DNA of 64,000 nucleotides. Origin: a virus. The notes beneath the pieces are model-generated. The model was given only the letters and a program-made list of their open reading frames with translations. It searched no databases and was not told the DNA's origin. Made by a program: the position numbers and the translations under genes. This document shows positions 1 through 25,619 of the stretch, piece by piece. Location: the IMG/VR virus record IMGVR_UViG_3300045988_053091; one strand, written 5' to 3'. Within the stretch, counting starts at the first letter, position 1, and each line of letters opens with the position of its first letter.

Positions 1-772
1 GCTTCAAGGCAATCTCTAGTTCTGGATAACCGTACTGACCTACTTCAATATCAGCACGTGGGTTACGAACAGCAAAAGCCATTTCACGTTCATTAAATTT
101 GGCTACGATTCGATTGTCTAGTACTTGTACAAATCGTTCTCCCTTTTCAATAATCTTTCCTTTACCGTTAGTAGCTAAGAAGATTGTTGTGGGGTCTACG
201 GTATCAAATTTTATAAAGTTACCATCTTTATCGAATACCTTCTCAAAGTTAACTTGGTCATACATATAAGTTGCACGTACCATCTTCTTACAAAAAGCAG
301 TAAAATTATCCCTATTTTGGTCTTTGAATACTGCGGTATTTTCTAGAAAGCTTTCAATTCTTTTAATATTTGCAATGTCATGTGTGGATGGCTCTTGTTC
401 AATATCTTTCAGCCGAACCTCGTAACCTACACCTGTCTCAGAGTTTCTTGCAGGTTTACAATACATAGATACCTGATTTGACCGTGTATTAATAATTGAA
501 TTAAGAATGATATTATTACCAAACTTCTTCAACATTTTGTGTAAATCCTGAGAATTTCTAATAGAAGGTTTTGTCTTAAATCCGGGGTTTACTGACATGT
601 CACCAATTATAGGTTGCATGTATGCTACTGGTTTACCATTCATACCTTTCTCTACCGTTTCTGTTAACGGCTGTGCTTGAATTTCTTTAAGCAAGGTTTG
701 GTAGACTTCTTCGCTTTTAACGATGTCAGTATCTTCTTCTACACCCAACACTTTATCTAACCATTTTGGCAA
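1..772 (-). CDS. portal protein, N-terminal ~257 codons (gene continues past window start)
   Basis: Uninterrupted minus-strand frame from TTG 772-770 (GAGGT RBS upstream) to position 1. Translation ...RNSETGVGYEVRLKD...RNPRADIEVGQYGYPELEIALK resembles SPO1-like myophage portal proteins. Absent from ORF track because truncated. Confidence 0.45.
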   Translation of the reverse strand, partial: MPKWLDKVLGVEEDTDIVKSEEVYQTLLKEIQAQPLTETVEKGMNGKPVAYMQPIIGDMSVNPGFKTKPSIRNSQDLHKMLKKFGNNIILNSIINTRSNQVSMYCKPARNSETGVGYEVRLKDIEQEPSTHDIANIKRIESFLENTAVFKDQNRDNFTAFCKKMVRATYMYDQVNFEKVFDKDGNFIKFDTVDPTTIFLATNGKGKIIEKGERFVQVLDNRIVAKFNEREMAFAVRNPRADIEVGQYGYPELEIALK

Positions 773-788
773 CTTGATTACACCTACC

Positions 789-1133
789 TCATATATAAAT
801 TTTTATTCTTTGTTTACCGTTGAAGCTACAACCTTCCGGAAGTGTTAGTTCGACTTTGTGCATATCACTATAAAAGAAGCCTTTCTGACTGTCATTGACT
901 ACTTCATAGTCCTCTACAGCAACATTTCCTTCTCTATCAACTAATAAAACCTGTTTGTTATCTAAGATTCGTAGTATGCGGTAATTTTTATTATCTATAG
1001 CAGTATGAACTTGTACATTGTTTCCACCGTTTTCATAGTAGAGGTGAATAATTAGAATCCAGTCTCCTACAAAACCGTTTTGTTTAGCTAACTGTTTTAC
1101 TGCTTGCCATGTATCGTCCTGTAAGTATGCCAC
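789..1133 (-). CDS. hypothetical protein
   Basis: ORF track 114 aa; TGCTATATT-type -10 motif upstream (1218-1226, minus). Confidence 0.6.
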   Translation of the reverse strand: MAYLQDDTWQAVKQLAKQNGFVGDWILIIHLYYENGGNNVQVHTAIDNKNYRILRILDNKQVLLVDREGNVAVEDYEVVNDSQKGFFYSDMHKVELTLPEGCSFNGKQRIKIYI

Positions 1134-1227
1134 GTATTCTTACCCCCAAGCATTTGTACTAGTTTAAGTATACCACAGGTAGCCCTGTAACAATTTTTCA
1201 TCACTGTCTACTAATTTAATATAGCAC

Positions 1228-1252
1228 AAAAAAGAGGGCTATTTAGCCCTCT
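1228..1252 (-). terminator. intrinsic terminator after lysin gene
   Basis: 8-bp stem AGAGGGCT/AGCCCTCT followed on the minus strand by a T-run. Confidence 0.7.
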
Positions 1253-1261
1253 TAAGTCATG

Positions 1262-2206
1262 TTACTTAAATGTACCCCATGCTTTCTTACCTACAGGTCG
1301 TATAGGGATGTAACGTCCATCGTTTGCATAAATCCAGATGTATCCCTCAGCAGACTTCCAACCAAGGTATCTCACAGATTGTCCCGGATACAATGGTGTA
1401 GCTGTTGGAGAAGATAAGCTTGGTTTGTTCTTACGGGTAGTAATAGGAGCATTACCATTAATAAACGTAGCTTCTTCCTTCGTAAATCCGGCAGGTAGTT
1501 TAGGTTTGCTTCCCCCAACTCTATCTGAACCATATCCACCTTCAATGTCTTGGGAAAGAACCCATCCAAGTACTGTTCCTTTATTTACAATCAAGTATTC
1601 TTGATTAGAGTAAGAATAAGAAATTGGTCGTTGTTGTTTAACGTCAAATGTACCGCCTTTGACAAAGCTTGCCATCTTAGAACCTTTACTTGATGGAGAC
1701 CAGTTGGTAGCGTGTTTAAGTACTTTTACTTTTTTAGTGTTTGGTTTTGAAGGAGTGCTTCCACCTTTTAAACGATACACATACCAACCCATGCTATATG
1801 GACAAGTAGTTGCTTCGTTATCTACGTAAACACCGTTAGCCGTTGCTGATTTCCATGTACAGTGAATAATCTGTGTACTACTAATGAAGATAACCACGTG
1901 ACCTGCGGAACCACCACTTGCACCTTTTTTACCAAAGATAACAATGTCTCCACGTTTAGCTGACCATTCCTGATTTTGTGCAATCAGTTTAAAACCATTT
2001 TTTTCTAGCCAACTGTGCATACTATCTGTATTAAGTACCCAACCTGCATCACTAGCCCCTGCCTTACGTAAAGAATCATAGACAGTACCAGAGCAATCCC
2101 CTGTGCCATCTGCACCTGTTCGGGAGTAGTTCATTGAGTAAGTAATACCTCTTGCTTTTAGAGCGTACATGTTCGCAATTGCGGTTTCCATGTTAATGTT
2201 ACTCAT
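1262..2206 (-). CDS. endolysin, Amidase_5-like (phage peptidoglycan hydrolase) N-domain plus SH3b-like C-domain
   Basis: N-terminus MSNINMETAIANMYALKARGITYSM..DCSGTVYDSLRKAG..GHVVIF..IIHC matches the Cys-His phage amidase/CHAP-like fold. Start moved to ATG 2206 behind a GGAAGTG RBS. Confidence 0.8.
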   Translation of the reverse strand: MSNINMETAIANMYALKARGITYSMNYSRTGADGTGDCSGTVYDSLRKAGASDAGWVLNTDSMHSWLEKNGFKLIAQNQEWSAKRGDIVIFGKKGASGGSAGHVVIFISSTQIIHCTWKSATANGVYVDNEATTCPYSMGWYVYRLKGGSTPSKPNTKKVKVLKHATNWSPSSKGSKMASFVKGGTFDVKQQRPISYSYSNQEYLIVNKGTVLGWVLSQDIEGGYGSDRVGGSKPKLPAGFTKEEATFINGNAPITTRKNKPSLSSPTATPLYPGQSVRYLGWKSAEGYIWIYANDGRYIPIRPVGKKAWGTFK

Positions 2207-2309
2207 AGCTATCACTTCCTGCTTGTTTTTAAGTTACAGTTATAATATAGCATAAGAAAAAGACCCCCTAAAAAGAGAGTCTTTTTTTAATCTGTTAGTA
2301 TTTATTATT

Positions 2310-2918
2310 TTAGTACCAACCGTTGGCTAACCAGAAAGCTTGTGCATTTTCCCATGAACCATAACGTCCTGCAACATAAGCATCTGCTACACGTTCTTGG
2401 TTTTCTGGTGAGTAGTCACCGTTTAAGTAAGATGAATCTAGTTGGTAACGTCCAATGTAACGTCCGTTAGTAGCTGAGTAAGAACCACTAGATTCTTTTT
2501 GTGCAATCCATTCTTTTGCTGAGTTAGATGTAACGGCAGGAGCTTGTTCTACTGGTTCTTGAACAACTGGTGCCTGTTCAACTACAGGTGTTTCTTCTAC
2601 TACAGGCGCTTGTTCTACAACTGGTGCTTCTTGCACTGGTTGAGCTACAGGAGCTTGAACTTCACCGTTTAATGGTAATAATAGTTTGTCTCCAACATAA
2701 ATCAAGTTAGCATCTGAAACTTTGTCTGAGTTGGCTTGGTGAATTAGGTTAAAATCAATTCCGTAACGATTACCAATAGTTGATAATGTATCTCCGGATT
2801 CTACTTGCCAGTAAGTTTGTCCATTTTCTTGGATTTCGTCTGCGTGAGCTTTAGCTCCCAATCCTAATGATAATCCTAGTCCTAAAAGTCCTAATGTTGC
2901 AATTGTCGTTTTCTTCAA
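2310..2918 (-). CDS. secreted LysM protein with PVVEQ-type repeat linker and Apf-like C-terminal domain
   Basis: Signal peptide MKKTTIATLGLLGLGLSLG, LysM (GDTLSTIGNRYGI..YVGDKLLLP), APVVEQ repeats, C-terminus AKEWIAQKESSGSYSATNGRYIGRYQL...WLANGWY typical of Lactobacillales aggregation-promoting-factor domains. Confidence 0.75.
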   Translation of the reverse strand: MKKTTIATLGLLGLGLSLGLGAKAHADEIQENGQTYWQVESGDTLSTIGNRYGIDFNLIHQANSDKVSDANLIYVGDKLLLPLNGEVQAPVAQPVQEAPVVEQAPVVEETPVVEQAPVVQEPVEQAPAVTSNSAKEWIAQKESSGSYSATNGRYIGRYQLDSSYLNGDYSPENQERVADAYVAGRYGSWENAQAFWLANGWY

Positions 2919-3040
2919 GTTGTCGTTCTCCTTTGGGTTGTTTTAGTTTTATGTGTTGCTTACAGGAACTAATATAGCAAATTAATATTACAAAGGTAGT
3001 CCTAAATCATTACAGTTCTATTACATATTATTACAGTAAT

Positions 3041-3066
3041 AAAAAAGACCCACCCGAAGGTAGGTC
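3041..3066 (-). terminator. intrinsic terminator after amidase gene
   Basis: Stem GACCCACC/GGTAGGTC with CGAA loop, followed on the minus strand by TTTTTTATT. Confidence 0.7.
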
Positions 3067-3075
3067 ATTGTACTG

Positions 3076-4344
3076 TTACAATTTGTTAGTTCCACCAAGT
3101 TGTAACTGGTCAGAAATTCCTGTATTCCCTAATGGGTCGGAGCAGTAACGACTTAGGATATAGATGTCTTTACCACGTGCAGGAGATTTAGCATCTAGTG
3201 CATGAGCAAAAGCAAATCTACAGTTTCCTCGTTGCGCAATCGTTCCGTCATATAGTTTTTGAATATCAGGAGAAGCCTTGAATGAAGATTTTGTAACGTC
3301 AAAACGTACAATTTCTTTATTCGTTTTCTTATCCATAATGAATAAGAAGTGTTTGTCAGAGTTTCTACGTTTAGAAGATAAGTGCCATCCATGTAGTGTT
3401 ACCTGACCTTTGTCACCTCTGATTACGTCTAAACAACCACGGTTAATTAATGCAGGGGCTTTAAAGACTTTATCTTTTACGTAAAGCTCTTCTTTGCTAT
3501 CGTTGTTGTAACGTAACAAGAAGTAGTACTCTTTACCCATAAGATTTTGTGGAGTTAAGCCGTTAACAGTAAAACCAACTTCTGCCCCGTTAGGGTTAGA
3601 TGGGTATACTTTTTTAACGTCTTCACGAACTACACGTTTACCTTGGAAACGCCCAATTTCTTTGTTTGTAGCTTTATCCATAAAGTACAACCAGATAGAT
3701 TGCCCTTTTGTAGACTTGCTAGGAATGAACCATCCTTGTACGTTAAATGCACCAGAGTTTACATTCACAATATCAAAGAATGCTTTACGACTGTTTGTTT
3801 GACTAGGCTTAGGTGCGCTGTTATTTCCACCTGCCATAAATTGTTTTGCTTGGCGTACAACTTCGTCTACGTTCATACCTCCGGGACATGCTGTTGAAGT
3901 CACTTCGTTATGACCTAAGACATGTTGGCGGTCACATGGGATACCGTAACGTTTACAAATATCTGCTACTAATCGAGCACAGTTTGTAACCGTACGAGGG
4001 TCAATTGACCAGTTAGGAGCACCACTTGAATTTAAGTTTTCGATACCGATTGAGCGTTGGTTAGGGTTAGACATCTTAGGAATATCTGCACCACCAGTTC
4101 CTCCTGCGTGCCACGCTGCATATTGTTCACCTACGCAACCGATAATCTCTGTTGGAGTAACCTCATAGTGAGCAGATGTACCTGCACTACCACCCGCTAC
4201 CCATGTGTTCATAGCAACATCCTTGTTTGTTGTTGCGTTGTGATGTAGAACAATGCGGTCAATAGCAATACCGTTACGACTACCAGAGTTCATCAGTTTA
4301 GGGTTAACGCTTGTAATTAAACTACTAAATACTTCGCCTGCCAT
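3076..4344 (-). CDS. endolysin, N-acetylmuramoyl-L-alanine amidase (Amidase_2/PGRP type) with two tandem C-terminal wall-binding repeats
   Basis: IVLHHNATT..AHYEV..AWHAG..GHNEVTSTACPG zinc-amidase motifs. The C-terminal half holds two related ~110-aa modules (..GW...L.FMDK.TNKEI.RF..). Start moved to ATG 4344 behind an AGGAGG RBS. Confidence 0.85.
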   Translation of the reverse strand: MAGEVFSSLITSVNPKLMNSGSRNGIAIDRIVLHHNATTNKDVAMNTWVAGGSAGTSAHYEVTPTEIIGCVGEQYAAWHAGGTGGADIPKMSNPNQRSIGIENLNSSGAPNWSIDPRTVTNCARLVADICKRYGIPCDRQHVLGHNEVTSTACPGGMNVDEVVRQAKQFMAGGNNSAPKPSQTNSRKAFFDIVNVNSGAFNVQGWFIPSKSTKGQSIWLYFMDKATNKEIGRFQGKRVVREDVKKVYPSNPNGAEVGFTVNGLTPQNLMGKEYYFLLRYNNDSKEELYVKDKVFKAPALINRGCLDVIRGDKGQVTLHGWHLSSKRRNSDKHFLFIMDKKTNKEIVRFDVTKSSFKASPDIQKLYDGTIAQRGNCRFAFAHALDAKSPARGKDIYILSRYCSDPLGNTGISDQLQLGGTNKL

Positions 4345-4445
4345 CTTGCAACCTCCTGTAAAAAAAGTCACAAAAAAAGAGTCTTCTTTCCTTGTGCAAT
4401 GTTAATATAGCACAAGTAAAAAAGACTCTTTTTAATCAGGAAATA

Positions 4446-4802
4446 TTAGTTTTGTTCTAAGAATTGCTCAATTTCATCAATTTTTGTCTCTCCTGTGTAA
4501 TAGAAAATACATTCCAAGATAGTGGAAGACCGTCCATCTGTAAGGGTTACTTTTTCTCCTGCTTCAATTGCCACATCTAACCCAAAAGATTTATCAGCTC
4601 TAATTAAACCGATATTTTTAATAAATTTTAGTACCTCTTTGTCACCATCTGTTACTAAAACATTAGGAATTGGAATCATAACTGACTGGGGTTCTGGTAC
4701 ATGTAGATTGCTTGCAATCAAGGACTCTCTTTTTCCTTGAAGTGCACGCAATTCTTTGATTAATGCTTGGTTTAATGTTACTTTGGTTGTAGGGTTTGCC
4801 AT
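4446..4802 (-). CDS. hypothetical protein
   Basis: ORF track 118 aa; abuts upstream gene. Confidence 0.6.
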   Translation of the reverse strand: MANPTTKVTLNQALIKELRALQGKRESLIASNLHVPEPQSVMIPIPNVLVTDGDKEVLKFIKNIGLIRADKSFGLDVAIEAGEKVTLTDGRSSTILECIFYYTGETKIDEIEQFLEQN

Positions 4803-5630
4803 TTAGAAATACCTCATGCTTTCTTTAATTTGTTTAACGAGTTCTTGTAGTTCGTGTTTTTCTGCGACTTCATCCACTAATTCGTTAATGACAGCCTCAG
4901 CAAGACGTGCAGATTTAACCACGTTGTCTTTTTGGATTGCTAGTTCTTGTTGCTCTTTCTTCTGCTTTTCCATTTCAGCAGTTTTTTCTTCAATCAGCTC
5001 TTCTTTACGCTCCATGTATGCTTTAGGTGCGAATACAATGTTTACACGTACTTCTTGTGCTTGAAGGATAGAACTGCATCCGGATAAGTTAGGGTCTACA
5101 ATGGCATCCCCTAGTGCTAGTACCTCTCCGTTTTGTAAAGCTTCGACAAAGAGTTTATTGATTTTAATATCGTCTAACCCACGGTCAATAGCTAATCGGA
5201 ATAAATACTCATATTCGACAGGGTATTCCTCTCTAAAAACTTGGAACCCTAAAAAATAACCTGACATGAAATCATCGGGTTGTGGGTCTTGACGAAGAAA
5301 TTGATAATTTGAATATAAATCCTTTACAATCTCTGTCAGTTTCTCAATGAACAATTTGTAGTCTGCATCGCTTGCTTTTTCGACTAACAAGTCAGAGAGT
5401 GTTTGTTCGTTAATAATTACGTTTTCTTTCTCTGGCAACTCCTGTACATCCCCTTTCAGTATGTTTGTTAACTTCTTCGTTAGCTCAGTTGCCCTTTCAG
5501 TTAGCACAACTTGTGCCTTTTTTCTCAAATCAAAAATTGTCTTGACTGTTTGAGCTACAAAAAGATTATAGCATATAAACACAGTTGTTGAGAAGGCTAA
5601 AATTAAAAATAACTCAAAAGTTGAAATCAT
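4803..5630 (-). CDS. membrane-anchored coiled-coil protein
   Basis: N-terminal TM (ISTFELFLILAFSTTVFICYNLFV) then long charged helices. Start set at ATG 5630, which overlaps the upstream stop as ATGA. Confidence 0.55.
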   Translation of the reverse strand: MISTFELFLILAFSTTVFICYNLFVAQTVKTIFDLRKKAQVVLTERATELTKKLTNILKGDVQELPEKENVIINEQTLSDLLVEKASDADYKLFIEKLTEIVKDLYSNYQFLRQDPQPDDFMSGYFLGFQVFREEYPVEYEYLFRLAIDRGLDDIKINKLFVEALQNGEVLALGDAIVDPNLSGCSSILQAQEVRVNIVFAPKAYMERKEELIEEKTAEMEKQKKEQQELAIQKDNVVKSARLAEAVINELVDEVAEKHELQELVKQIKESMRYF

Positions 5631-6475
5631 GGCTCCCCAAGCGCTTCCAGTAGGGAACTCTTGGAAATTATATAACAACTACCACTTTTTTTAAGTCCGT
5701 ATTCTTTAAATAATTCTAGTGCTAACGGGTCATCAGTAGCATCAATCTTAGCACCTAAGCCAAGTTTACGAGCACGTAACAATAGTTGTGTAAATGCTAC
5801 ATAAGCCACTCCACTTGTAAGGTCGTCTGATTGGTAGAAAGCTAAATATAAATAGCTACCCTCTTTACGATAACCTGCCACACCACCAAGTTCTCCGGTT
5901 TCTCCTTGAAGAACTAAGTATGAAGAACAATCAGTTGAAAATGCCCCATTTAAACTACCTGCCTCAGTTTTAAGTTTAGCAATTTGTTTTGGGTCTATAC
6001 CATTATGGTCATCTCCAATAATTGTTTTGCTTAAATCTCTAGCATTTCTTGGCTCAACATTTTCCTCTGTTTGAGTGTCCTTATCTAATGGGTTTTTATT
6101 ATCATCATCTTCTCCGGAACTGTCTTCGTAGATAGTAGTCGTCATCATTTTACCATTTCTCATTACTCGTCTTTTAACTGGCTTCAACTTTGATAAATCT
6201 TTTTGACCGCCTTTAATTAAATAGTCATTTAGTGAATCACAACTATCAGCATAGCAGTATAGGTCATAAAAGGAGTTAAAACCATAAGCCTTCACAATAT
6301 GTGAATAGTCTTTTGATAATTTTTCATTTTCTGATATAACGTACCCGTAGTTTAACTTCTTGCCTAGCATACCTTCTAAAAAGGACTTACTGACTGTAGC
6401 TTCTACAGGTTTAAATTCTGCAACAGAGCTAAGAAGATTATCAACAAGAGCTTGGTATTCTTGATTGTCATTCAT
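5627..6475 (-). CDS. hypothetical protein, possible GNAT-like C-terminal region
   Basis: ORF track 282 aa. C-terminus LLLRARKLGLGAKI resembles an acetyl-CoA-binding R-x-x-G-x-G motif (weak). Confidence 0.5.
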   Translation of the reverse strand: MNDNQEYQALVDNLLSSVAEFKPVEATVSKSFLEGMLGKKLNYGYVISENEKLSKDYSHIVKAYGFNSFYDLYCYADSCDSLNDYLIKGGQKDLSKLKPVKRRVMRNGKMMTTTIYEDSSGEDDDNKNPLDKDTQTEENVEPRNARDLSKTIIGDDHNGIDPKQIAKLKTEAGSLNGAFSTDCSSYLVLQGETGELGGVAGYRKEGSYLYLAFYQSDDLTSGVAYVAFTQLLLRARKLGLGAKIDATDDPLALELFKEYGLKKSGSCYIISKSSLLEALGEP

Positions 6476-13443: not shown

Positions 13444-14025
13444 AGTATTACACCACAAGTTAGTGGTTAAAAATTGAAAACTTAATAGATTTTGAACCTA
13501 GTGCAGAAAGTTTGAACAGCTTGCTAGGATAACGTGGCGTGAATCTGGATGTAACCGAAGGTGCGATAGTGCTTTGGGTTGCAGGTAGGTCTTATGGTGA
13601 CATAGGAGTAACTATTAGTAAAAGCTAATATCAGTTAAGCGTTATGTGGAGTATACATGGATTGTAAGGTACAAGACTCTTGGGGGATACAATAGACGTT
13701 CCTGTGGAAAAGAATCCAAGTTAGGTGGAAGTGTGAGAAGCTTGGCAGACCTTGGAAAACTCAAAAGACTCCCTTTGACGAGAACTGTAGAAATACAGGT
13801 TTAACAAGAGACCTTGGTACAAGTAGCTTAAGTCAGCTTTTGATGAAAATATTATAAAAGACATAAGGATATATGTTCATTAATACTTTTAATAGCTGAA
13901 TGTTTAGGTGAACGTTGTTAGCCACCGTGCTAGACCATACATTAAAGGCAGAGAGAAGCTATCGGGTAGCTCCCGATGGTTCAGCCTCTCTGAGTATGTG
14001 ACCGAATGCAGTGAGTGTATATGAA

Positions 14026-14068
14026 GCAGGAAGAAAAGCCCTTAATCTATTAAGTTTTGAGTTTTTAA
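14026..14068 (+). repeat. 43-nt direct repeat, copy A1
   Basis: GCAGGAAGAAAAGCCCTTAATCTATTAAGTTTTGAGTTTTTAA, identical to 14527-14569. Confidence 0.95.
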
Positions 14069-14585: not shown

Positions 14586-14657
14586 GCGGAGATGCTGAAC
14601 GGTTTAGGCACTTGACTCATAACCAAGCTTTAGTGGGTTCGACTCCCACCTACCGCA
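14586..14657 (+). tRNA. tRNA-like, anticodon CAT (Met/Ile2 type), imperfect acceptor stem
   Basis: Good T-arm GTGGG-TTCGACT-CCCAC and loop CTCATAA, but the acceptor GCGGAGA/CTACCGC pairs at only 4 positions plus a wobble. Confidence 0.45.
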
Positions 14658-18543: not shown

Positions 18544-18891
18544 GGGGCTGTTTTGGTTTCGACTGGCGTAAGGAGTATATGAATAGCGGGCAGAGTGATG
18601 ACTTAATCATCGCAGTAAATATAACTGCTAAAAACGAAGAATTATTAGCTGTAGCCTAGTTTTAGACTAGCTACACACTTACCCCTCTAGACTAGGGTCG
18701 GTTCTACCTAGAGGACTCATTAACCGACAACGCTGAGGTAAAAGTGGATAACTCAGGAGAGGCTTTACCACTCAGTTAAGGTAATTTCAGTTATTAGTTG
18801 TAACCTTAACGTAGATTAAAACTAGTAACTACGCCCGTAGAATTTTGTATGGTTCTACGTCAACACAGGGGTTCGATTCCCCTCAGTTCCA
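18544..18891 (+). ncRNA. ssrA: tmRNA (SsrA), phage-encoded
   Basis: The 5' end GGGGCTGTTTTGGTTTCGACTGGCG and the 3' end AGGGG-TTCGATT-CCCCT-CAGTTCC-A form the tRNA-like domain. Internal tag frame is GCT AAA AAC GAA GAA TTA TTA GCT GTA GCC TAG (AKNEELLAVA), 18627-18659. Confidence 0.8.
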
Positions 18892-18896
18892 TTTTG

Positions 18897-21120: not shown

Positions 21121-21934
21121 ATTTAAATTATTTTTTAGCCAATTCGAACACTAAGATGTAGTTATGCTATATTAGTGTTCGAAGAGGTGGAAAGTATGGT
21201 TAAAGTAAGTAAAGTTTACAGTGTAAGTGATGAAGATTTTAAGCTAGTTGTTGCTAATTCTAACACAATCACAGATATTCTTTGGAAGTTAGGATACAGT
21301 AAATCTTCTGGAACAGGTAACGCCAGAAATTTAATCAAAAAGCGGATAGCTGAACTAGGCATTACCTTCCAGTCACAACCAGTCAAATCTAGCAGAATGT
21401 CAGACGAGAGCTTTTATGTTAAAGGAACTTATCGTAGTAACCTACGAGTAAGAGTTCTACAAGATGGTTTCTTAGAGTATAAATGTTCGGAATGTGGTAT
21501 AACTAGTACTTGGAACGGTAAACCGTTAACTCTACAATTAGACCACGTTGACGGGGATGCTACAAATAATGAAAAGCCGAATTTACGATGGTTATGCCCT
21601 AATTGCCATACACAAACAGAGACGTATGGGTCAAAGAACAAAGGAAGCACAAGGACTAAGCATAGAGGAACTTATGGTGAACGAGAATGTAAGTATTGCC
21701 ATAAAATGTTTACTGCCAAGAACAGAGAATCCATGTTCTGTAGCGGGCAGTGTTCTGGTAAAAGCCGTAAGAAGACTCCACCTGTTTCTAAAGAAGACCT
21801 ACTAGCTTTGTTAGAAAAGGAGTCATTTTTGTCAGTGGGTCGTAAGTTTGACGTTTCAGATAACACTGTACGTAAATGGTGTATGCGTTATGATATACCT
21901 AGTAAGTCTTCTTATTATAAAAAATAATTTAAAT
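21121..21934 (+). mobile_element. 814-bp HNH-endonuclease insertion in the tRNA anticodon loop, bounded by a perfect 16-nt inverted repeat
   Basis: ATTTAAATTATTTTTT (21121-21136) and AAAAAATAATTTAAAT (21919-21934). Only about 82 nt are non-coding. Confidence 0.7.
21196..21927 (+). CDS. HNH homing endonuclease
   Basis: LDHVDGDATNNEKPNLRWLCPNCHTQ HNH motif with flanking HTH-like regions. ATG 21196 behind a GAGGTGG RBS. -10 TGCTATATT at 21165-21173 sits between 12-bp inverted repeats. Confidence 0.85.
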   Translation: MVKVSKVYSVSDEDFKLVVANSNTITDILWKLGYSKSSGTGNARNLIKKRIAELGITFQSQPVKSSRMSDESFYVKGTYRSNLRVRVLQDGFLEYKCSECGITSTWNGKPLTLQLDHVDGDATNNEKPNLRWLCPNCHTQTETYGSKNKGSTRTKHRGTYGERECKYCHKMFTAKNRESMFCSGQCSGKSRKKTPPVSKEDLLALLEKESFLSVGRKFDVSDNTVRKWCMRYDIPSKSSYYKK

Positions 21935-23040: not shown

Positions 23041-23265
23041 ATGTCTAAATTTTATGGAATTATTTCAACAACTTCTACTCGTACAGAAGAGTACGAACAA
23101 AAGTTAAAAAACGGAAAGACGGTTAAGAAAACTCGTGAAATTACTGTGCCAAAAGAAGTTACAGTACAGTCTTCTCAACCAGACCGTTTAGGTGCTCGTA
23201 AAGAGCTAGAAGCTTTTGCACGTAAATGCAAAGGTACTGTTAAATATATTGGAGCTTTTAAATAA
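23041..23265 (+). CDS. hypothetical basic protein
   Basis: ORF track 74 aa; GGAGG RBS. Confidence 0.6.
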   Translation: MSKFYGIISTTSTRTEEYEQKLKNGKTVKKTREITVPKEVTVQSSQPDRLGARKELEAFARKCKGTVKYIGAFK

Positions 23266-23289
23266 GTTTCAATATATTTAAATTAATAC

Positions 23290-23318
23290 TTGACAGTTTA
23301 AATAGCTTATGCTATTAT
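23290..23318 (+). promoter_or_regulatory. promoter of the Y-RNA-like transcription unit
   Basis: TTGACA, 17-nt spacer, TGCTATTAT. Confidence 0.7.
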
Positions 23319-23334
23319 AAAGACAAGATAAAAA

Positions 23335-23515
23335 GGTTTTGACATATGTCATAGTTCCAACCTAACAGGTAGCCGGAACATAAAGAACGCCACAGCAAAC
23401 TTTTAAAACTAATACATCTGGAAAATGTGAGTTGTTGGTTCGAATCCAACTGCCACCCTTGGTGGTATAGCTTAATTGGTAAAGCTTAAAGTTAATGCGT
23501 TCTTGTTACATAAAT
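23335..23515 (+). ncRNA. Y-RNA-like RNA 1 with internal permuted tRNA-like domain (YrlA-like candidate)
   Basis: Conserved 5' module shared with RNA 2. Helix AAGAACGC (23383-23390) pairs with GCGTTCTT (23497-23504). Inner helix 23398-23406/23486-23493. T-arm GTTGG-TTCGAAT-CCAAC. 7-bp acceptor-like stem capped by CTT. D-arm GCTT-AATTGGTA-AAGC. Confidence 0.5.
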
Positions 23516-23520
23516 AAAAC

Positions 23521-23640
23521 GGTTTTAGCATAGCTATAGTTCCATCCTTAATGGGTGCCGGAACATAAAGAACCCTACAGCAATCAACTACTAATATATT
23601 AAAACTATTGAATTTAATTAAGCCTGTGGTTCTTGATATT
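23521..23640 (+). ncRNA. Y-RNA-like RNA 2 (no tRNA-like domain; YrlB-like candidate)
   Basis: The first ~60 nt are homologous to RNA 1, with compensatory changes in two hairpins. Helix AAGAACC (23568-23574) pairs with GGTTCTT (23628-23634) around an AT-rich loop. Confidence 0.4.
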
Positions 23641-23698
23641 GTAATGACAAGTTAAACGGTAGCCGCTAAACCGAATGTTTAACTGTCGGTTATTTGAA

Positions 23699-23726
23699 AC
23701 TCATTCTTAATTGAATGGGTTTTTTA
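23699..23726 (+). terminator. intrinsic terminator
   Basis: ACTCATTC/GAATGGGT stem then TTTTTTATTT. Confidence 0.7.
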
Positions 23727-23739
23727 TTTATAAAAGGCG

Positions 23740-23768
23740 TTGACTTACATAATATTACATGTTATAGT
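23740..23768 (+). promoter_or_regulatory. sigma-A-type promoter of the vWA protein gene
   Basis: TTGACT, 17-nt spacer, TGTTATAGT. Confidence 0.7.
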
Positions 23769-23809
23769 TATGTTAGACAAAACATTACCATACAAAGGAG
23801 AAATGTCAG

Positions 23810-25345
23810 ATGTCGTTTTTAGACAACCTAAAAGAAGAAACAACTGTTGGCTCTACAGAAAATGGAGCTAAAACTTATACATCAACTTTAAACGCTAACT
23901 TAGACTTCTTTGCACAAGCAGGGGCTATGCGTGGTCGTTTAGAAGATGTACGAAACATGTTTTCTAAAGCTTATGCTGAAAACCCAGAGTTAGCATTACG
24001 CAATTTGGTACACTTACGTAATATCCGTTTAGGTGGATTGGGTGAACGTTCCGCTTACCTAGAAGCAATCAAATACTTAGTGGATGGTCGTAACCAAAAC
24101 AAGCAAGTAATCGTTACTTTAATGGAGTACATGGCATATGTTGGTCGTTGGACAGACTTATTTGAAACTATGGAGTACGCACACAAACGTAGTATTCACT
24201 TTGTGGATACAGAAGGCGCACGTATCATCGGTAACCAACTAACATCTGATATTAAAAATATGTCAGAAGGTAAGCCTGTATCATTACTAGGTAAATGGTT
24301 AGCTAATGTAAGTTCTCCAAATAGCAAGAAACGTAATCAAGGTGCTCGTATTGCTAACTATTTAGGTTTTGAAGGCAAAGCAGGTCTAACTCGTTATCGT
24401 AAAATGATTGCTAAATTACGTGATTACTTAAATGTAATTGAAGTTCGGTTAGCAAGCAAGGAATACCATAAGATTGATTTGAACCAAGTATCCTCTAAAG
24501 CATTGTTCAAATACCGTAAAGCTTTGCAATTACACATGCCAGATGAATATGAAGCGCTTATGGAAAAGGTGGAGTCGGGTGAAGGAAAGCTTAATGCAAG
24601 TTTGGTATTACCTCACGAGATTACAGGAGCATACCGTAAAGCACGTGCAGGTCAGGGTGTAAATCGTTCTTTAGAAGCTACTTGGCAGTCTTTAGATGAT
24701 GTTATTAAGGATGTGGAAGATAACGCAATTGTAGTTGCTGATTCTTCTAGTTCAATGACTTGGGAACAAACGAACGGGGTTTACCCTTGGGATGTTGCAC
24801 AAGGTTTAGCATTATACACGGCTGAAAAATTAAACGGTACTTTCGCTAATCATTTCATTACATTTGCATCAGAACCTAGTTTAGTATATTTGAATCCACA
24901 GGATACTGTGTATGACCGTATGAGAGCATATAACAGTGCAAGAGTTGGCTATTCTACTAATATTCAAGCAGTGTTCCGATTGATTCTTGATACTGCGGTT
25001 AAGCATAACACACCGCAAGAAGAACTACCATCCAAGATTATTATTATCAGTGATATGGAATTTAATACTGCTTGTGAACGAGGACAAAGAACAAACTTTG
25101 AGCAAGCAAAACAGGAGTTTGCAAATCATGGCTACGAGTTACCTGCTATTATTTTCTGGAATGTACAATCTCGTCATGATAATGTACCAGTACGGTTTAA
25201 TGAAGATAATGTTGCGTTAGTTTCTGGATTTTCCACAAATATTTTATCGCAAGTACTAGGTGGGGAAGTTACTTCCCCAGAAGAAATGATGTTGTCTGTT
25301 TTAAATAAACCAGAATACGACTTTGTAAAAGAAGCACTTAAATAA
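23810..25345 (+). CDS. helical-repeat plus vWA (MIDAS) protein, DUF2828-like, with Ro60/TROVE-like architecture
   Basis: The N-terminus TENGAKTYTSTLNANLDFFAQAGAMRG..LRNLVHLRNIRLGGLGERSAYLEA resembles the DUF2828 family. The C-terminal VVADSSSSMTW..IIISDMEFN is a vWA fold with a DxSxS MIDAS motif. Confidence 0.55.
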   Translation: MSFLDNLKEETTVGSTENGAKTYTSTLNANLDFFAQAGAMRGRLEDVRNMFSKAYAENPELALRNLVHLRNIRLGGLGERSAYLEAIKYLVDGRNQNKQVIVTLMEYMAYVGRWTDLFETMEYAHKRSIHFVDTEGARIIGNQLTSDIKNMSEGKPVSLLGKWLANVSSPNSKKRNQGARIANYLGFEGKAGLTRYRKMIAKLRDYLNVIEVRLASKEYHKIDLNQVSSKALFKYRKALQLHMPDEYEALMEKVESGEGKLNASLVLPHEITGAYRKARAGQGVNRSLEATWQSLDDVIKDVEDNAIVVADSSSSMTWEQTNGVYPWDVAQGLALYTAEKLNGTFANHFITFASEPSLVYLNPQDTVYDRMRAYNSARVGYSTNIQAVFRLILDTAVKHNTPQEELPSKIIIISDMEFNTACERGQRTNFEQAKQEFANHGYELPAIIFWNVQSRHDNVPVRFNEDNVALVSGFSTNILSQVLGGEVTSPEEMMLSVLNKPEYDFVKEALK

Positions 25346-25388
25346 TCTGTTTGCCCTAGGATTTCCTAGGGCTGTAGTTACATATAGA

Positions 25389-25619
25389 ATGGAGGGGAGA
25401 ATCGTGGAAAGCAAGCCAAAACCCTTGGTGCTGAAACGTGTTCGTGAAGAAAAGCATGAATCCTTGCGTTCTGTAGCTAAAAAACTAGGTGTACACTGGT
25501 CAACTGTATCCTATTGGGAGCATGGAATCAAAAAACCCAGAGCAAATAATCAAGCTAAATTAGCTCGGATTTTTGATATGCCTGCGGACAAGCTATTAGA
25601 ACCTGATGACAAAAACTGA
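25389..25619 (+). CDS. XRE-family HTH protein
   Basis: SLRSVAKKLGVHWSTVSYWEHGIKKP; an alternative GTG start at 25404 is possible. Confidence 0.7.
   Translation: MEGRIVESKPKPLVLKRVREEKHESLRSVAKKLGVHWSTVSYWEHGIKKPRANNQAKLARIFDMPADKLLEPDDKN

What the first reader, a model, noticed from the sequence alone, without database searches (positions are those of the whole stretch)
23290..25345. Candidate phage Ro-like RNP module: two Y-RNA-like RNAs just upstream of a helical-plus-vWA (DUF2828-like) protein
Seen in sequence: a strong promoter (23290-23318) drives about 400 nt of non-coding sequence that ends at a terminator (23699-23726). A second promoter then drives a 511-aa gene. The non-coding unit contains two homologous ~60-nt 5' modules (23335-23397 and 23521-23583). 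Both local hairpins keep pairing through compensatory changes (TGACatatGTCA versus TAGCataGCTA; ACCTaacAGGT versus CCATccttaATGG). Each module is followed by a long helix built from distal strands (AAGAACGC/GCGTTCTT in RNA 1, AAGAACC/GGTTCTT in RNA 2). RNA 1 encloses a tRNA-like domain and RNA 2 encloses only an AT-rich loop. The protein has a helical N-terminal region and a C-terminal vWA fold with a DxSxS MIDAS motif. Established knowledge: Ro60/Rsr proteins (a TROVE helical ring plus vWA with MIDAS) bind Y RNAs. In bacteria these are encoded next to rsr, and they include YrlA, which has a tRNA-mimicking domain, and a smaller YrlB. Inference: this is a phage Ro-like RNP in which a DUF2828-type protein takes the Ro60 role. 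I am not aware of that pairing being described.
Basis: partly seen in the sequence, partly recalled or inferred. Interest (0 to 1): 0.85.

Follow-up and report, generated by a model that had tools for sequence, protein, structure and literature searches.

The report
Phage Ro-like protein with partner RNAs
An Enterococcus phage encodes a protein predicted to fold like the Ro60 RNA-binding ring, next to two small tRNA-mimicking RNAs, and those RNAs carry a conserved helix-plus-ACAGCAA signature that I found beside this protein family in about 150 other phage and bacterial loci but in no RNA family library or held paper.

Summary

**Protein.** The 511-aa protein (Pfam DUF2828 + DUF7788) gives a confident AlphaFold model. 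Its ten best PDB matches are all full-length Ro60/TROVE structures. By sequence it is not a TROVE member.

**RNAs.** The upstream 400 nt holds two tandem RNA units. Close relatives have three, so RNA 2 of the window is a deletion chimera.

**New finding.** Each unit has a core "handle": a covarying helix (AAG…/…CUUG) followed by ACAGCAA.
- The handle lies on the gene strand within 1-1.5 kb of the gene in 74 of 84 phage-derived loci (80 viral contigs, 3 relatives, the window).
- It also does so in 75 of 80 bacterial loci, and in FelixO1, Listeria P100 and mycobacteriophage Faith1.
- It is absent beside four canonical TROVE Ro60 phage genes.
- It matches no Rfam family.

The loops carry tRNA pieces: whole permuted tRNAs, T-arms or anticodon-loop mimics.

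**Context.** In about half of the bacterial loci the gene sits between WYL regulators and the RtcB RNA ligase, like Salmonella rsr-yrlBA-rtcBA.

**Prior knowledge.** Ro-likeness of this family is already in annotations and one preprint. The RNA handle appears undescribed.

**Verdict.** New variant of a known kind. RNA binding and function remain inferred.

The parts
23290..23318 (+). Promoter 1 (TTGACA-17-TATTAT, TG extension) for the non-coding unit
   Evidence: 11 of 12 matches. Both hexamers are invariant in 4 Enterococcus phages except one position of the -10.
23335..23379 (+). RNA 1 5' module: GGUUUU lead, P1 hairpin (23340-23343/23348-23351), P2 (23354-23358/23375-23379) enclosing P2a (23360-23363/23367-23370)
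   Evidence: Alignment A3 of 13 units: 97% paired, 10 of 13 pairs with changes on both sides, slid controls 29-53%.
23383..23398 (+). RNA 1 handle, 5' side: helix strand AAGAACGC (23383-23390), one spacer base, ACAGCAA (23392-23398)
   Evidence: Consensus AAAG-R-C-R-C-NN-ACAGCAA from 227 contexts. Helix covariation.
23413..23487 (+). RNA 1 cargo, a circularly permuted tRNA-like domain: anticodon-arm mimic 23413-23429 (loop CUGGAAA), T-arm 23434-23450 (GTTGG-TTCGAAT-CCAAC), closed acceptor-like hairpin 23451-23467, D-arm 23469-23486
   Evidence: Rfam YrlA 33.2 bits, E=2.2e-5 at 23405-23512, and partial tRNA match at 18.8 bits. MFE fold. ARAGORN makes no call.
23497..23505 (+). RNA 1 handle, 3' strand GCGTTCTT plus conserved G
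23521..23564 (+). RNA 2 5' module (P1 23526-23529/23533-23536; P2 23539-23543/23560-23564; P2a 23545-23547/23553-23555). In relatives this module belongs to unit 2.
23565..23638 (+). RNA 2 core: helix AAGAACC (23568-23574) / GGTTCTT (23628-23634) + G23635, ACAGCAA 23577-23583, AU-rich 44-nt loop. In relatives this body belongs to unit 3.
   Evidence: This is the only match in the 64-kb window to covariance model R1, which was built from 41 units of unrelated loci (26.4 bits, E=0.0025). The deletion junction is shown.
23636..23695 (+). Variable spacer with a local hairpin. It is absent or different in relatives. 23648-23665 resembles part of the 5' module.
23696..23731 (+). Intrinsic terminator ending the RNA unit
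   Evidence: It is conserved in relatives, with differences in the 3' arm.
23740..23768 (+). Promoter 2 (TTGACT-17-TATAGT, TG) for the protein gene; RBS AAAGGAG at 23794-23800
   Evidence: Invariant in relatives.
23810..25345 (+). 511-aa Ro60-like protein. Helical ring region at about residues 1-295 (Pfam DUF2828). vWA domain at 305-492 (Pfam DUF7788) with MIDAS D311-x-S313-x-S315, T383, D415.
   Evidence: Pfam. PHROG 850. AF2 model. Foldseek PDB. Invariant residues.

Best explanation
This is a two-part ribonucleoprotein module of the Ro60/Y-RNA kind, built from a different protein family and a different RNA recognition element.

**Shown**
- The gene encodes a protein predicted to have the Ro60 architecture: a helical-repeat ring plus a vWA domain with a complete MIDAS.
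- Just upstream, a strong promoter and a terminator delimit a transcript of about 400 nt with two tandem structured units.
- Each unit holds a 'handle'. This is a 7-8-bp helix whose base is AAG/CUU(G) and whose upper pairs covary, followed after 1-2 nt by an invariant single-stranded ACAGCAA.
- The handle accompanies genes of this protein family across phages of Firmicutes, Proteobacteria and Actinobacteria, and in bacterial operons.

**Inferred**
- The protein binds the handle, much as Ro60 binds the conserved Y RNA stem.
- The variable loop is a 'cargo' that mimics tRNA. In RNA 1 it is a whole circularly permuted tRNA. Elsewhere it is a T-arm or an anticodon stem-loop.
- The cargo brings the RNP to tRNA-handling enzymes or nucleases.
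- In bacteria the module works with the RtcB ligase under WYL regulators, which points to RNA damage response.
- In this phage, which carries 19 tRNAs, a tmRNA and a ROOL RNA just upstream, the module most likely serves surveillance, repair or protection of tRNA-like RNAs during infection, including counter-defence.
For: **Protein fold**
- AF2 model with pLDDT 91.1 and pTM 0.90.
- The top 10 PDB matches are all Ro60/TROVE, full length, E 6e-8 to 3e-6.
- BFVD neighbours include a TROVE protein and a Gordonia phage Ro-like protein.
- The MIDAS residues are invariant.

**RNA-gene association**
- ACAGCRA occurs 360 times on the gene strand versus 45 on the other strand in 83 loci. It peaks at -500..0 before the start codon.
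- This replicates in 80 bacterial loci: 323 versus 82, with 75 of 80 loci holding a unit within 1 kb.
- Reciprocal search by RNA pattern alone gave 59 of 120 viral stretches encoding the protein, all 59 on the same strand.
- Units are present in FelixO1, Faith1 and P100.

**Helix covariation**
- 170 of 226 perfect partners versus about 43 after swapping strands among units.
- Anchored test: 104 of 170 versus 38±3.8.
- 87% of cells paired versus 30-49% in slid controls.

**Specificity**
- No units and no R1 hits beside 4 canonical TROVE phage genes.
- Only the two units in the whole window have the full motif.

**tRNA mimicry**
- YrlA hits at 33-47 bits.
- 75 of 392 loops hold a T-loop hairpin, against 0.44 in shuffles.
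- 67 of 392 loops hold a CU-NNN-AA hairpin, against 2.1 in shuffles.

**Operon context**
- RtcB lies immediately downstream in 39 of 80 bacterial loci. WYL and WCX regulators lie upstream in 44 and 42.
- P100 has RtcB 1.3 kb downstream.

**Literature**
- Bas63 gp130 is Ro60-like and counters the ppl defence (PMC11482910).
Against: - No expression, processing or binding data exist for this phage or any relative. Protein-RNA contact is inferred from co-location only.
- Sequence methods do not link the protein to TROVE. Pfam gives no TROVE hit. A profile search of PDB finds no Ro60. hhalign against human Ro60 aligns only the vWA part, at 6.9% probability.
- Foldseek TM-scores are moderate (0.44-0.64) with rmsd 6-12 Å.
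- The RNAs fail the YrlA gathering score.
- At least 10 motif-bearing viral stretches with more than 3.5 kb on each side lack the gene, so adjacency is not obligatory.
- There is no RtcB in this window, and only 2 of 80 viral loci have it, so the repair link is weaker for phages.
- The window lost one of three units without obvious harm, so individual units are dispensable.
Confidence: 0.7

Rival explanations
1. The units are cis-acting leader elements. The protein, or another factor, binds them in the 5' UTR to autoregulate translation or read-through of its own gene. On this reading they are not stable trans-acting partner RNAs.
For: In many loci the last unit lies 25-130 nt before the start codon. 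In Eubacterium sp. OM08-24 two units lie between the promoter region and the RBS with no terminator between them.
Against: - In the window and its relatives a conserved terminator and a second conserved promoter separate the RNAs from the gene.
- In FelixO1, Faith1 and several viral loci the units lie downstream of the gene, among tRNAs or before a terminator.
- Arrays of 2-8 units with tRNA-like cargo are hard to explain as operators.
- The Salmonella Y RNAs are also co-transcribed with their operon, so co-transcription does not exclude a partner role.
Confidence: 0.12
2. The RNAs are free-standing tRNA mimics, acting as decoys or sentinels for host anticodon nucleases or tRNA-modifying enzymes. 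They act without the protein, and the neighbouring gene is only co-regulated or stabilises them.
For: Cargo domains mimic tRNA arms, including anticodon loops with 21 different triplets. The units sit at the edge of tRNA banks. Phage tRNAs are known to counter tRNA-targeting defences (own knowledge).
Against: This does not explain why the invariant part is the non-tRNA handle (ACAGCAA + helix). It does not explain why that handle tracks the gene even in bacterial operons without tRNA banks. RNA 2, like most of the 392 distinct unit loops examined (67 had a CU-NNN-AA hairpin, 75 a T-loop hairpin), has no recognisable tRNA piece.
Confidence: 0.1
3. The units are by-products of the tRNA bank, such as degenerate or permuted pseudo-tRNAs and processing hairpins. 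On this reading they have no specific tie to the protein, and the protein is a vWA/MIDAS adaptor for proteins rather than RNA.
For: A tRNA bank lies immediately upstream. The cargo is tRNA-derived. vWA/MIDAS domains usually bind proteins (own knowledge).
Against: - The strand-specific, position-specific association was replicated in two independent locus sets and by reciprocal search.
- Covariation shows selection on the handle helix.
- The units occur in bacterial loci next to the gene without tRNA banks.
- The full-length fold match is to Ro60, not only to vWA domains.
Confidence: 0.05

Closest known systems
Bacterial Ro60 (Rsr) with YrlA/YrlB Y RNAs in the Salmonella rsr-yrlBA-rtcBA operon under RtcR (Chen 2014, PMC4201824; Hughes 2020, PMC7790460)
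   Same: A ring + vWA/MIDAS protein. Two or more small RNAs encoded beside it on the same strand. One RNA has a T-arm / acceptor / D-arm tRNA mimic and one is smaller and lacks it. RtcB is an operon neighbour in bacteria, with a ligand-sensing regulator upstream.
   Different: - The protein belongs to Pfam DUF2828 + DUF7788, not TROVE + vWA_Ro60.
- The RNAs score 33-47 bits against a YrlA gathering score of 69, and the model's Ro-binding stems do not pair.
- The conserved element is a helix + ACAGCAA handle, absent from the YrlA consensus and from four TROVE phage loci.
- The regulators are WYL/WCX, not RtcR.
- The window units carry an extra 5' three-helix module.
Phage-encoded canonical Ro60 with Y-like RNAs (Thermus phage phiLo φRo60-Yrl1/Yrl2, PMC12135203; Bixzunavirus mycobacteriophages such as Rizal and Streptomyces phages)
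   Same: A phage gene for a Ro-shaped protein with two RNAs just upstream, often beside tRNAs. phiLo Ro60 is among the best structural matches.
   Different: Those proteins are detected with human Ro60 by tblastn (356 phage records). This family is not, and it is about twice as common (707 records). The phiLo Yrls were defined by a CGAA bulge motif, not by ACAGCAA.
Bas63 gp130 (FelixO1-like coliphage), PhageMaP preprint PMC11482910
   Same: Probably the orthologue. All 251 Felixounavirus-type records carry this gene directly upstream of the tRNA cluster. The preprint reports Ro60-like structure and a counter-defence phenotype against ppl, and proposes that nearby 'tRNAs' are Y RNAs.
   Different: The preprint identified no RNA partner. 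Here the candidate partners in FelixO1 are four ACAGCAA hairpins lying between the annotated tRNAs, not the tRNAs themselves. The identity of gp130 with this family is inferred from synteny and was not checked on the Bas63 record.
Rfam YrlA (RF02553) and tRNA (RF00005)
   Same: T-arm, closed acceptor stem and D-arm in the YrlA order. In other loci the handle sits in the anticodon-arm position of 112-126-nt RNAs that pass the tRNA gathering score.
   Different: The window RNA 1 is below both gathering scores. It also keeps an anticodon-arm mimic, so it is a full permuted cloverleaf.

Membership tests
Ro60 / TROVE protein family (Pfam PF05731 + PF25045) | Ring of helical repeats (TROVE fold) followed by a vWA domain, seen as full-length structural similarity to solved Ro60 | tested here: met
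   Foldseek on the AF2 model. The top 10 PDB hits are all Ro60/TROVE over 503-585 columns, E 6e-8 to 3e-6, TM 0.44-0.64.
Ro60 / TROVE protein family (Pfam PF05731 + PF25045) | Sequence match to the TROVE and vWA_Ro60 profiles | tested here: not met
   No TROVE or vWA_Ro60 hit at E<=1. Human Ro60 hits both. A profile search of PDB finds no Ro60. hhalign aligns only the vWA part, at 6.9% probability.
Ro60 / TROVE protein family (Pfam PF05731 + PF25045) | Complete MIDAS motif (DxSxS, T, D) in the vWA domain | tested here: met
   D311, S313, S315, T383 and D415 are invariant in 42 homologues.
Ro60 / TROVE protein family (Pfam PF05731 + PF25045) | Binds Y RNA on the outer ring surface and single-stranded RNA ends in the central cavity | not testable with these tools
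   This needs binding assays or a complex structure.
DUF2828 / DUF7788 family (Pfam PF11443 + PF25043; PHROG 850) | Scores above the curated cut-offs of both Pfam models | tested here: met
   DUF7788 156.1 bits (cut-off 27.1). DUF2828 95.1 bits (cut-off 29). PHROG 850 at 2.3e-139.
YrlA Y RNA (Rfam RF02553) | Score at or above the gathering threshold (69 bits) | tested here: not met
   33.2 bits in the window. 34.3 and 47.4 bits in phiSHEF16. Canonical phage loci also reach only about 36 bits.
YrlA Y RNA (Rfam RF02553) | tRNA-like domain with T-arm, closed acceptor stem and D-arm in that order | tested here: met
   Aligned with high posterior probability to model positions about 30-85. Fold.
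YrlA Y RNA (Rfam RF02553) | Terminal stem with the conserved Ro-binding helix | tested here: not met
   The outer stems of the model are marked non-pairing in the alignment. The conserved element here is AAG-helix + ACAGCAA.
YrlA Y RNA (Rfam RF02553) | Encoded within a few kb of the Ro orthologue on the same strand | tested here: met
   300-420 nt upstream, same strand. This holds for a Ro-like protein, not a TROVE orthologue.
tRNA | Called by ARAGORN or at or above the Rfam tRNA gathering score (29 bits) | tested here: not met
   No ARAGORN call in 23300-23730. Rfam tRNA 18.8 and 16.1 bits.
Helix-ACAGCAA 'handle' RNAs defined here | AAG…/…CUUG helix with covarying upper pairs, 1-2 spacer bases, ACAGCAA, on the strand of a DUF2828 gene within about 1 kb | tested here: met
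   Both window units fit. RNA 2 is the only window hit of model R1, which was built without Enterococcus phage sequences (E=0.0025).
RtcB RNA-repair operon of the rsr-yrlBA-rtcBA type | RtcB ligase gene adjacent on the same strand | tested here: not met
   No RtcB in the 64-kb window. It is present in 39 of 80 bacterial loci and 2 of 80 viral loci of the family.

The most novel reading that the evidence does not exclude
The helix-ACAGCAA RNAs are the cognate partner RNAs of a second, larger and uncharacterised branch of Ro-shaped proteins.

- The branch comprises about 10,000 clusters at 50% identity. It is in 707 phage records against 356 for canonical Ro60. It also occurs in Clostridial RtcB operons and giant viruses.
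- The RNAs are modular. A fixed protein-binding handle carries swappable tRNA-mimic cargo: whole permuted tRNAs, tRNAs with the handle in place of the anticodon loop, T-arms, or anticodon stem-loops with at least 21 different triplets.
- On this reading the RNP would display tRNA look-alikes as sentinels, decoys or repair substrates for anticodon nucleases. That would couple damage sensing to RtcB in bacteria and to counter-defence in phages.
Probability: 0.3. Interest if true: 0.85.

Novelty: new variant of a known kind. Interest (0 to 1): 0.72.

Why it matters
Ro60-Y RNA particles are a classic RNA-surveillance system, conserved from bacteria to humans, whose bacterial and phage roles are still poorly understood.

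- If the inference holds, most phage 'Ro-like' genes belong to a separate family with its own RNA recognition code. That family has been overlooked because searches for Y RNAs started from TROVE-annotated genes (Chen 2014).
- The handle gives a simple sequence-and-structure signature for finding partner RNAs in FelixO1-, P100/A511-, Schiekvirus- and L-cluster-type phages. Several of these are used therapeutically or in food safety.
- It supplies a concrete candidate for the RNA component behind the reported anti-defence phenotype of Bas63 gp130.
- The link to RtcB and WYL regulators in gut Clostridia extends the Rsr/RtcB RNA-repair paradigm beyond Proteobacteria.
- The modular handle-plus-tRNA-mimic design is directly testable by binding assays and mutagenesis.

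Tried and rejected
1. **First pattern scan.** My first collection scan used a pattern one base out of register (7 instead of 6 bases between G and ACAGCAA). It returned 4 uninformative loci. I corrected it.
2. **Sequence link to Ro60.** phmmer and a profile search against PDB, and hhalign against human Ro60, gave nothing beyond the vWA domain. Homology with TROVE therefore rests on predicted structure only.
3. **Donor tRNA.** I looked for a donor tRNA for the permuted domain among the 19 tRNAs of the window. There is no convincing parent; the best is Ser-GGA with a low local score.
4. **Motif-bearing loci without the gene.** I checked whether they encode another Ro-like protein. From the printed translations, which I did not run through Pfam, the neighbouring large ORFs look like terminases, a portal, a recombinase and a transposase.
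5. **Known Rfam family.** I considered whether the units belong to a described family. Sensitive cmscan of the window region, phiSHEF16, FelixO1, Faith1 and P100 found only YrlA and tRNA sub-threshold hits on the cargo and nothing on the handle.
6. **Literature.** Searches for DUF2828, DUF7788, PF11443 and 'Ro-like RNA binding protein' gave only genome announcements and unrelated plant papers. Burroughs & Aravind 2016 (RNA repair systems) and the supplements of Chen 2014 are not held. I therefore could not check whether they had already merged this family with TROVE or listed such phages.
7. **Bas63.** The Bas63 record was not among the listed FelixO1-like hits. Its orthology is inferred.
Full report
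**Setting.** The window is from a roughly 150-kb Enterococcus phage of the Schiekvirus group (Herelleviridae). The region 23200-25400 is 95.9% identical to phage phiSHEF16, and 31 Enterococcus phages match it. Upstream on the same strand lie 19 tRNA genes, a tmRNA and a ROOL RNA. The finding sits at the downstream edge of this RNA gene bank.

**Observation check.**
- A near-consensus extended -10 promoter lies at 23290-23318, an intrinsic terminator at 23696-23723, and a second promoter at 23740-23768.
- A good RBS and a 511-codon ORF follow at 23810-25345.
- The two 5' modules form a 48-nt direct repeat with 83% identity.
The energy z-scores are unimpressive, at -1.7 and -1.8.
- In an alignment of 13 such modules from Enterococcus-type phages, three helices (P1, P2, P2a) are 97% paired. 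Ten of 13 pairs change on both sides, against 29-53% pairing when the partners are slid.

**A deletion chimera.** Alignment with phiSHEF16, EFDG1 and vB_EfaM_A2 shows that relatives carry three tandem units between the 74-aa ORF and the gene. The window lacks about 190 nt running from the end of the unit-2 5' module to the end of the unit-3 5' module. Its RNA 2 is therefore the unit-2 module fused to the unit-3 body. The lost piece is a second tRNA-like domain, which scores 47.4 bits on YrlA in phiSHEF16.

**The protein.**
- Pfam assigns DUF7788 (1e-45, residues 305-492) and DUF2828 (5.5e-27). PHROGs assigns family 850, 'RNA-binding protein'.
- Sequence searches against PDB find no Ro60, with a single sequence or with a 42-member profile.
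- hhalign of the profile against human Ro60 aligns only the vWA domain, at 6.9% probability.
- Human Ro60 is TROVE + vWA_Ro60 in Pfam. The FelixO1, Faith1 and P100 homologues are DUF2828 + DUF7788.
- The AlphaFold2 model is confident, with pLDDT 91.1 and pTM 0.90. Its ten best PDB matches are all Ro60/TROVE chains aligned over the full length. They are Xenopus Ro (1yvr, E=6e-8, TM 0.64), phage phiLo Ro60 (9kop, 9l5y), human Ro60 complexes and Deinococcus Rsr (2nvo). Isolated vWA domains begin only at E=2e-3.
- In the viral structure library the nearest neighbours are DUF2828/DUF7788 proteins of phages and of giant viruses. A phage TROVE protein and a Gordonia phage 'Ro-like RNA binding protein' follow.
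- The MIDAS residues D311, S313, S315, T383 and D415 are invariant, as are several Arg, Lys and Trp residues of the helical part.
- The family is large. It has 9,930 representatives at 50% identity with E<=1e-3 and occurs in 707 phage records, against 356 for canonical Ro60.

**The RNAs: a conserved handle.**
- Scanning 80 viral loci that encode homologues of 33-80% identity with Rfam gave odd 112-126-nt 'tRNA' hits beside the gene. Reading one locus showed a repeated ACAGCAA next to a helix, the same as in both window units.
- ACAGC[AG]A occurs 360 times on the gene strand and 45 times on the other strand in 600 kb. 138 copies lie within 500 nt upstream of the start codon, and a second peak lies just after the stop.
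- The consensus from 227 non-identical contexts is A-A-A-G-R-C-R-C-N-N-ACAGCAA followed by U/A-rich sequence.
- Positions -9 to -3 pair with a strand that ends in CUUG or CUAG. 170 of 226 units have a perfect 7-bp partner, against about 43 when 5' strands are swapped among units.
- When the partner is fixed by the CT[TA]G anchor and only the four variable positions are scored, 104 of 170 are fully complementary, against 38±3.8 in 200 shuffles (maximum 48). 44 different tetramers occur.
- On 70 mini-units, 87% of cells pair against 30-49% when slid. 83 cells change on both sides, against 24±4 in shuffles. The partner was chosen among anchors by complementarity, so these counts lean towards pairing. 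The swap and slide controls bound that bias.
- 74 of 84 loci have at least one unit within 1.5 kb, usually 2-6.

**Two topologies.**
- In 'open' units the helix encloses the loop that begins with ACAGCAA.
- In 'closed' units a 3-5-nt loop caps the AAG/CUU end, and ACAGCAA leads into a scaffold. This form sits in the anticodon-arm position of otherwise complete tRNAs that encode CCA.
- Both are permutations of one motif: a helix with ACAGCAA following the 3' end of its AAG strand.

**Replication and specificity.**
- Eighty bacterial and MAG loci form an independent set. They are mostly Clostridia and include the isolates Eubacterium sp. OM08-24 and Sarcina sp. DSM 11001. They show the same bias: 323 versus 82, with 139 copies in -500..0 and 75 of 80 loci holding a unit.
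59 encode the protein, all on the motif strand, and most often within a few hundred nt.
- Many of the other stretches are short or one-sided. At least 10 have more than 3.5 kb on both sides and no homologue, although their units look genuine. Adjacency is therefore usual but not obligatory.
- Units are present in Salmonella phage FelixO1 (four, between the tRNAs downstream of the gene) and in mycobacteriophage Faith1 (three tandem units plus a terminator downstream, the middle one with T-arm, acceptor and D-arm). They are also present in Listeria phage P100 (three, upstream).
- Four phage loci with canonical TROVE Ro60 (Rizal, Sparky, Phredrick, Phosso) have no such units. Two of them have weak YrlA hits.
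- Covariance model R1 was built from 41 simple units of unrelated loci. Its only match in the 64-kb window is RNA 2 (23565-23638, 26.4 bits, E=0.0025). It also hits P100, Faith1, FelixO1 and the Enterococcus relatives, and nothing in the TROVE loci.
- RNA 1 is missed, as expected, because of its 108-nt insertion.
- No Rfam 15 family matches the handle.

**Cargo.**
- RNA 1 encloses, in order: an anticodon-arm-like hairpin (loop CUGGAAA), a T-arm, a closed acceptor-like stem and a D-arm. This is a full cloverleaf opened between the D-arm and the anticodon arm.
- Across 392 distinct unit loops, 75 contain a T-loop hairpin, against 0.44 in shuffles.
- 67 contain a hairpin with a 7-nt CU-NNN-AA loop, against 2.1±1.5 in shuffles. 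These carry 21 different triplets.

**Genomic context.** Clustering the neighbours of 160 loci gave the following.
- RtcB lies immediately downstream on the same strand in 41 loci (39 of 80 bacterial, 2 of 80 viral).
- WYL- and WCX-domain regulators lie upstream in 44 and 42 of the bacterial loci.
- All three occur together in 24 loci.

In Eubacterium sp. OM08-24 the order is WYL, WCX, terminator, two units, the gene, RtcB. P100 has RtcB 1.3 kb downstream. The window has no RtcB. This layout parallels Salmonella rtcR / rsr-yrlBA-rtcBA (PMC4201824, PMC7790460).

**What is known.**
- Phage Ro60 with Y-like RNAs is established (Chen 2014; φRo60 of phage phiLo, PMC12135203; Iyer 2021, PMC7824862). 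Those studies started from TROVE-annotated genes.
- This family is labelled 'RNA-binding protein' or 'Ro-like RNA binding protein' in databases.
- A 2024 preprint found Bas63 gp130 Ro60-like and anti-ppl, and guessed at Y RNAs among the tRNAs.
- I found no description of the ACAGCAA handle or of partner RNAs for this family. The held library is incomplete.

**Mechanism.**
- Shown: the predicted fold, the transcription signals, the structured and covarying RNA units, and their strand- and position-specific association with the gene family.
- Inferred: that the protein binds the handle, that the cargo recruits or mimics tRNA partners, and that the module acts in RNA repair, surveillance or counter-defence.

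**Verdict.** The system is a new variant of the Ro60/Y-RNA kind. The protein's Ro-likeness was already recognised informally. The RNA handle and its modular tRNA-mimic cargo appear to be new.

Noticed in passing
window 13473-14059 (+); L210 (Listeria phage P100) 1459-2010: A ROOL RNA (267.9 bits) lies in the tRNA bank about 10 kb upstream of the module. P100 has a sub-threshold ROOL-like match (86 bits, gathering score 99.1) about 1 kb upstream of its DUF2828 gene. There may be a recurrent co-occurrence of ROOL with this module.
   Followed up: no
window 18544-18894 (+): A phage-encoded tmRNA (124.9 bits) with tag peptide AKNEELLAVA.
   Followed up: no
window 14586-14657 (+): An extra tRNA-model hit (35.5 bits) that ARAGORN does not call. 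It may be a degenerate or unusual tRNA in the bank.
   Followed up: no
window 23564/23565 junction versus L001 1860-2050: The window lacks about 190 nt that are present in the three aligned relatives. The longer record spans of the best megablast hits suggest they have them too. The missing piece comprises the second tRNA-like domain and one 5' module, apparently removed by recombination between repeats.
   Followed up: yes
L006 2575-2927, L017 2139-2713, L028 2277-2841, L012 4586-4991, L008 4732-4844, L016 4584-4702: RNAs of 112-126 nt that pass the Rfam tRNA gathering score but are not called by ARAGORN. In the one read in detail (L006 2575-2688) it is a complete tRNA with an encoded CCA end. 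Its anticodon loop is replaced by a capped helix + ACAGCAA handle.
   Followed up: partly
392 unit loops in L001-L083 and L208-L290: Anticodon-loop-like hairpins (CU-NNN-AA) occur in 67 loops with 21 different triplets. The commonest are UGA, UUU, GAA, GCA and CAU. This suggests a repertoire of anticodon-arm mimics.
   Followed up: partly
L229 (Eubacterium sp. OM08-24) 583-5727 and 38 other bacterial loci: A conserved operon with the order WYL regulator, WCX regulator, RNA units, DUF2828 protein, RtcB ligase. The second unit in L229 reads GUCAGCAA rather than ACAGCAA, so the motif tolerates U at its first position.
   Followed up: partly
L088, L092, L096, L104, L115, L173, L176, L187, L196, L203: Well-formed handle units with perfect helices, but no DUF2828 homologue within 3.5 kb on either side. 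The neighbours look like terminase, portal or recombinase genes. The gene may lie elsewhere in those genomes, or the motif may have another partner.
   Followed up: partly
window 23648-23665 (+): A third, partial copy (78%) of the P2a-AGCCG segment of the 5' module, in the variable spacer before the terminator. It may be a remnant of another unit.
   Followed up: no
window 21175-21927 (+): A 250-aa ORF inside the tRNA bank with a weak HNH endonuclease match (E=0.005). EFDG1 has an annotated homing endonuclease nearby.
   Followed up: no
BFVD matches to the model: Close structural relatives in giant eukaryotic viruses: Pithovirus, Cafeteria roenbergensis virus, Mimiviridae, Marseillevirus. The only papers that mention DUF2828 are mostly on plants. 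The family therefore reaches well beyond phages.
   Followed up: no
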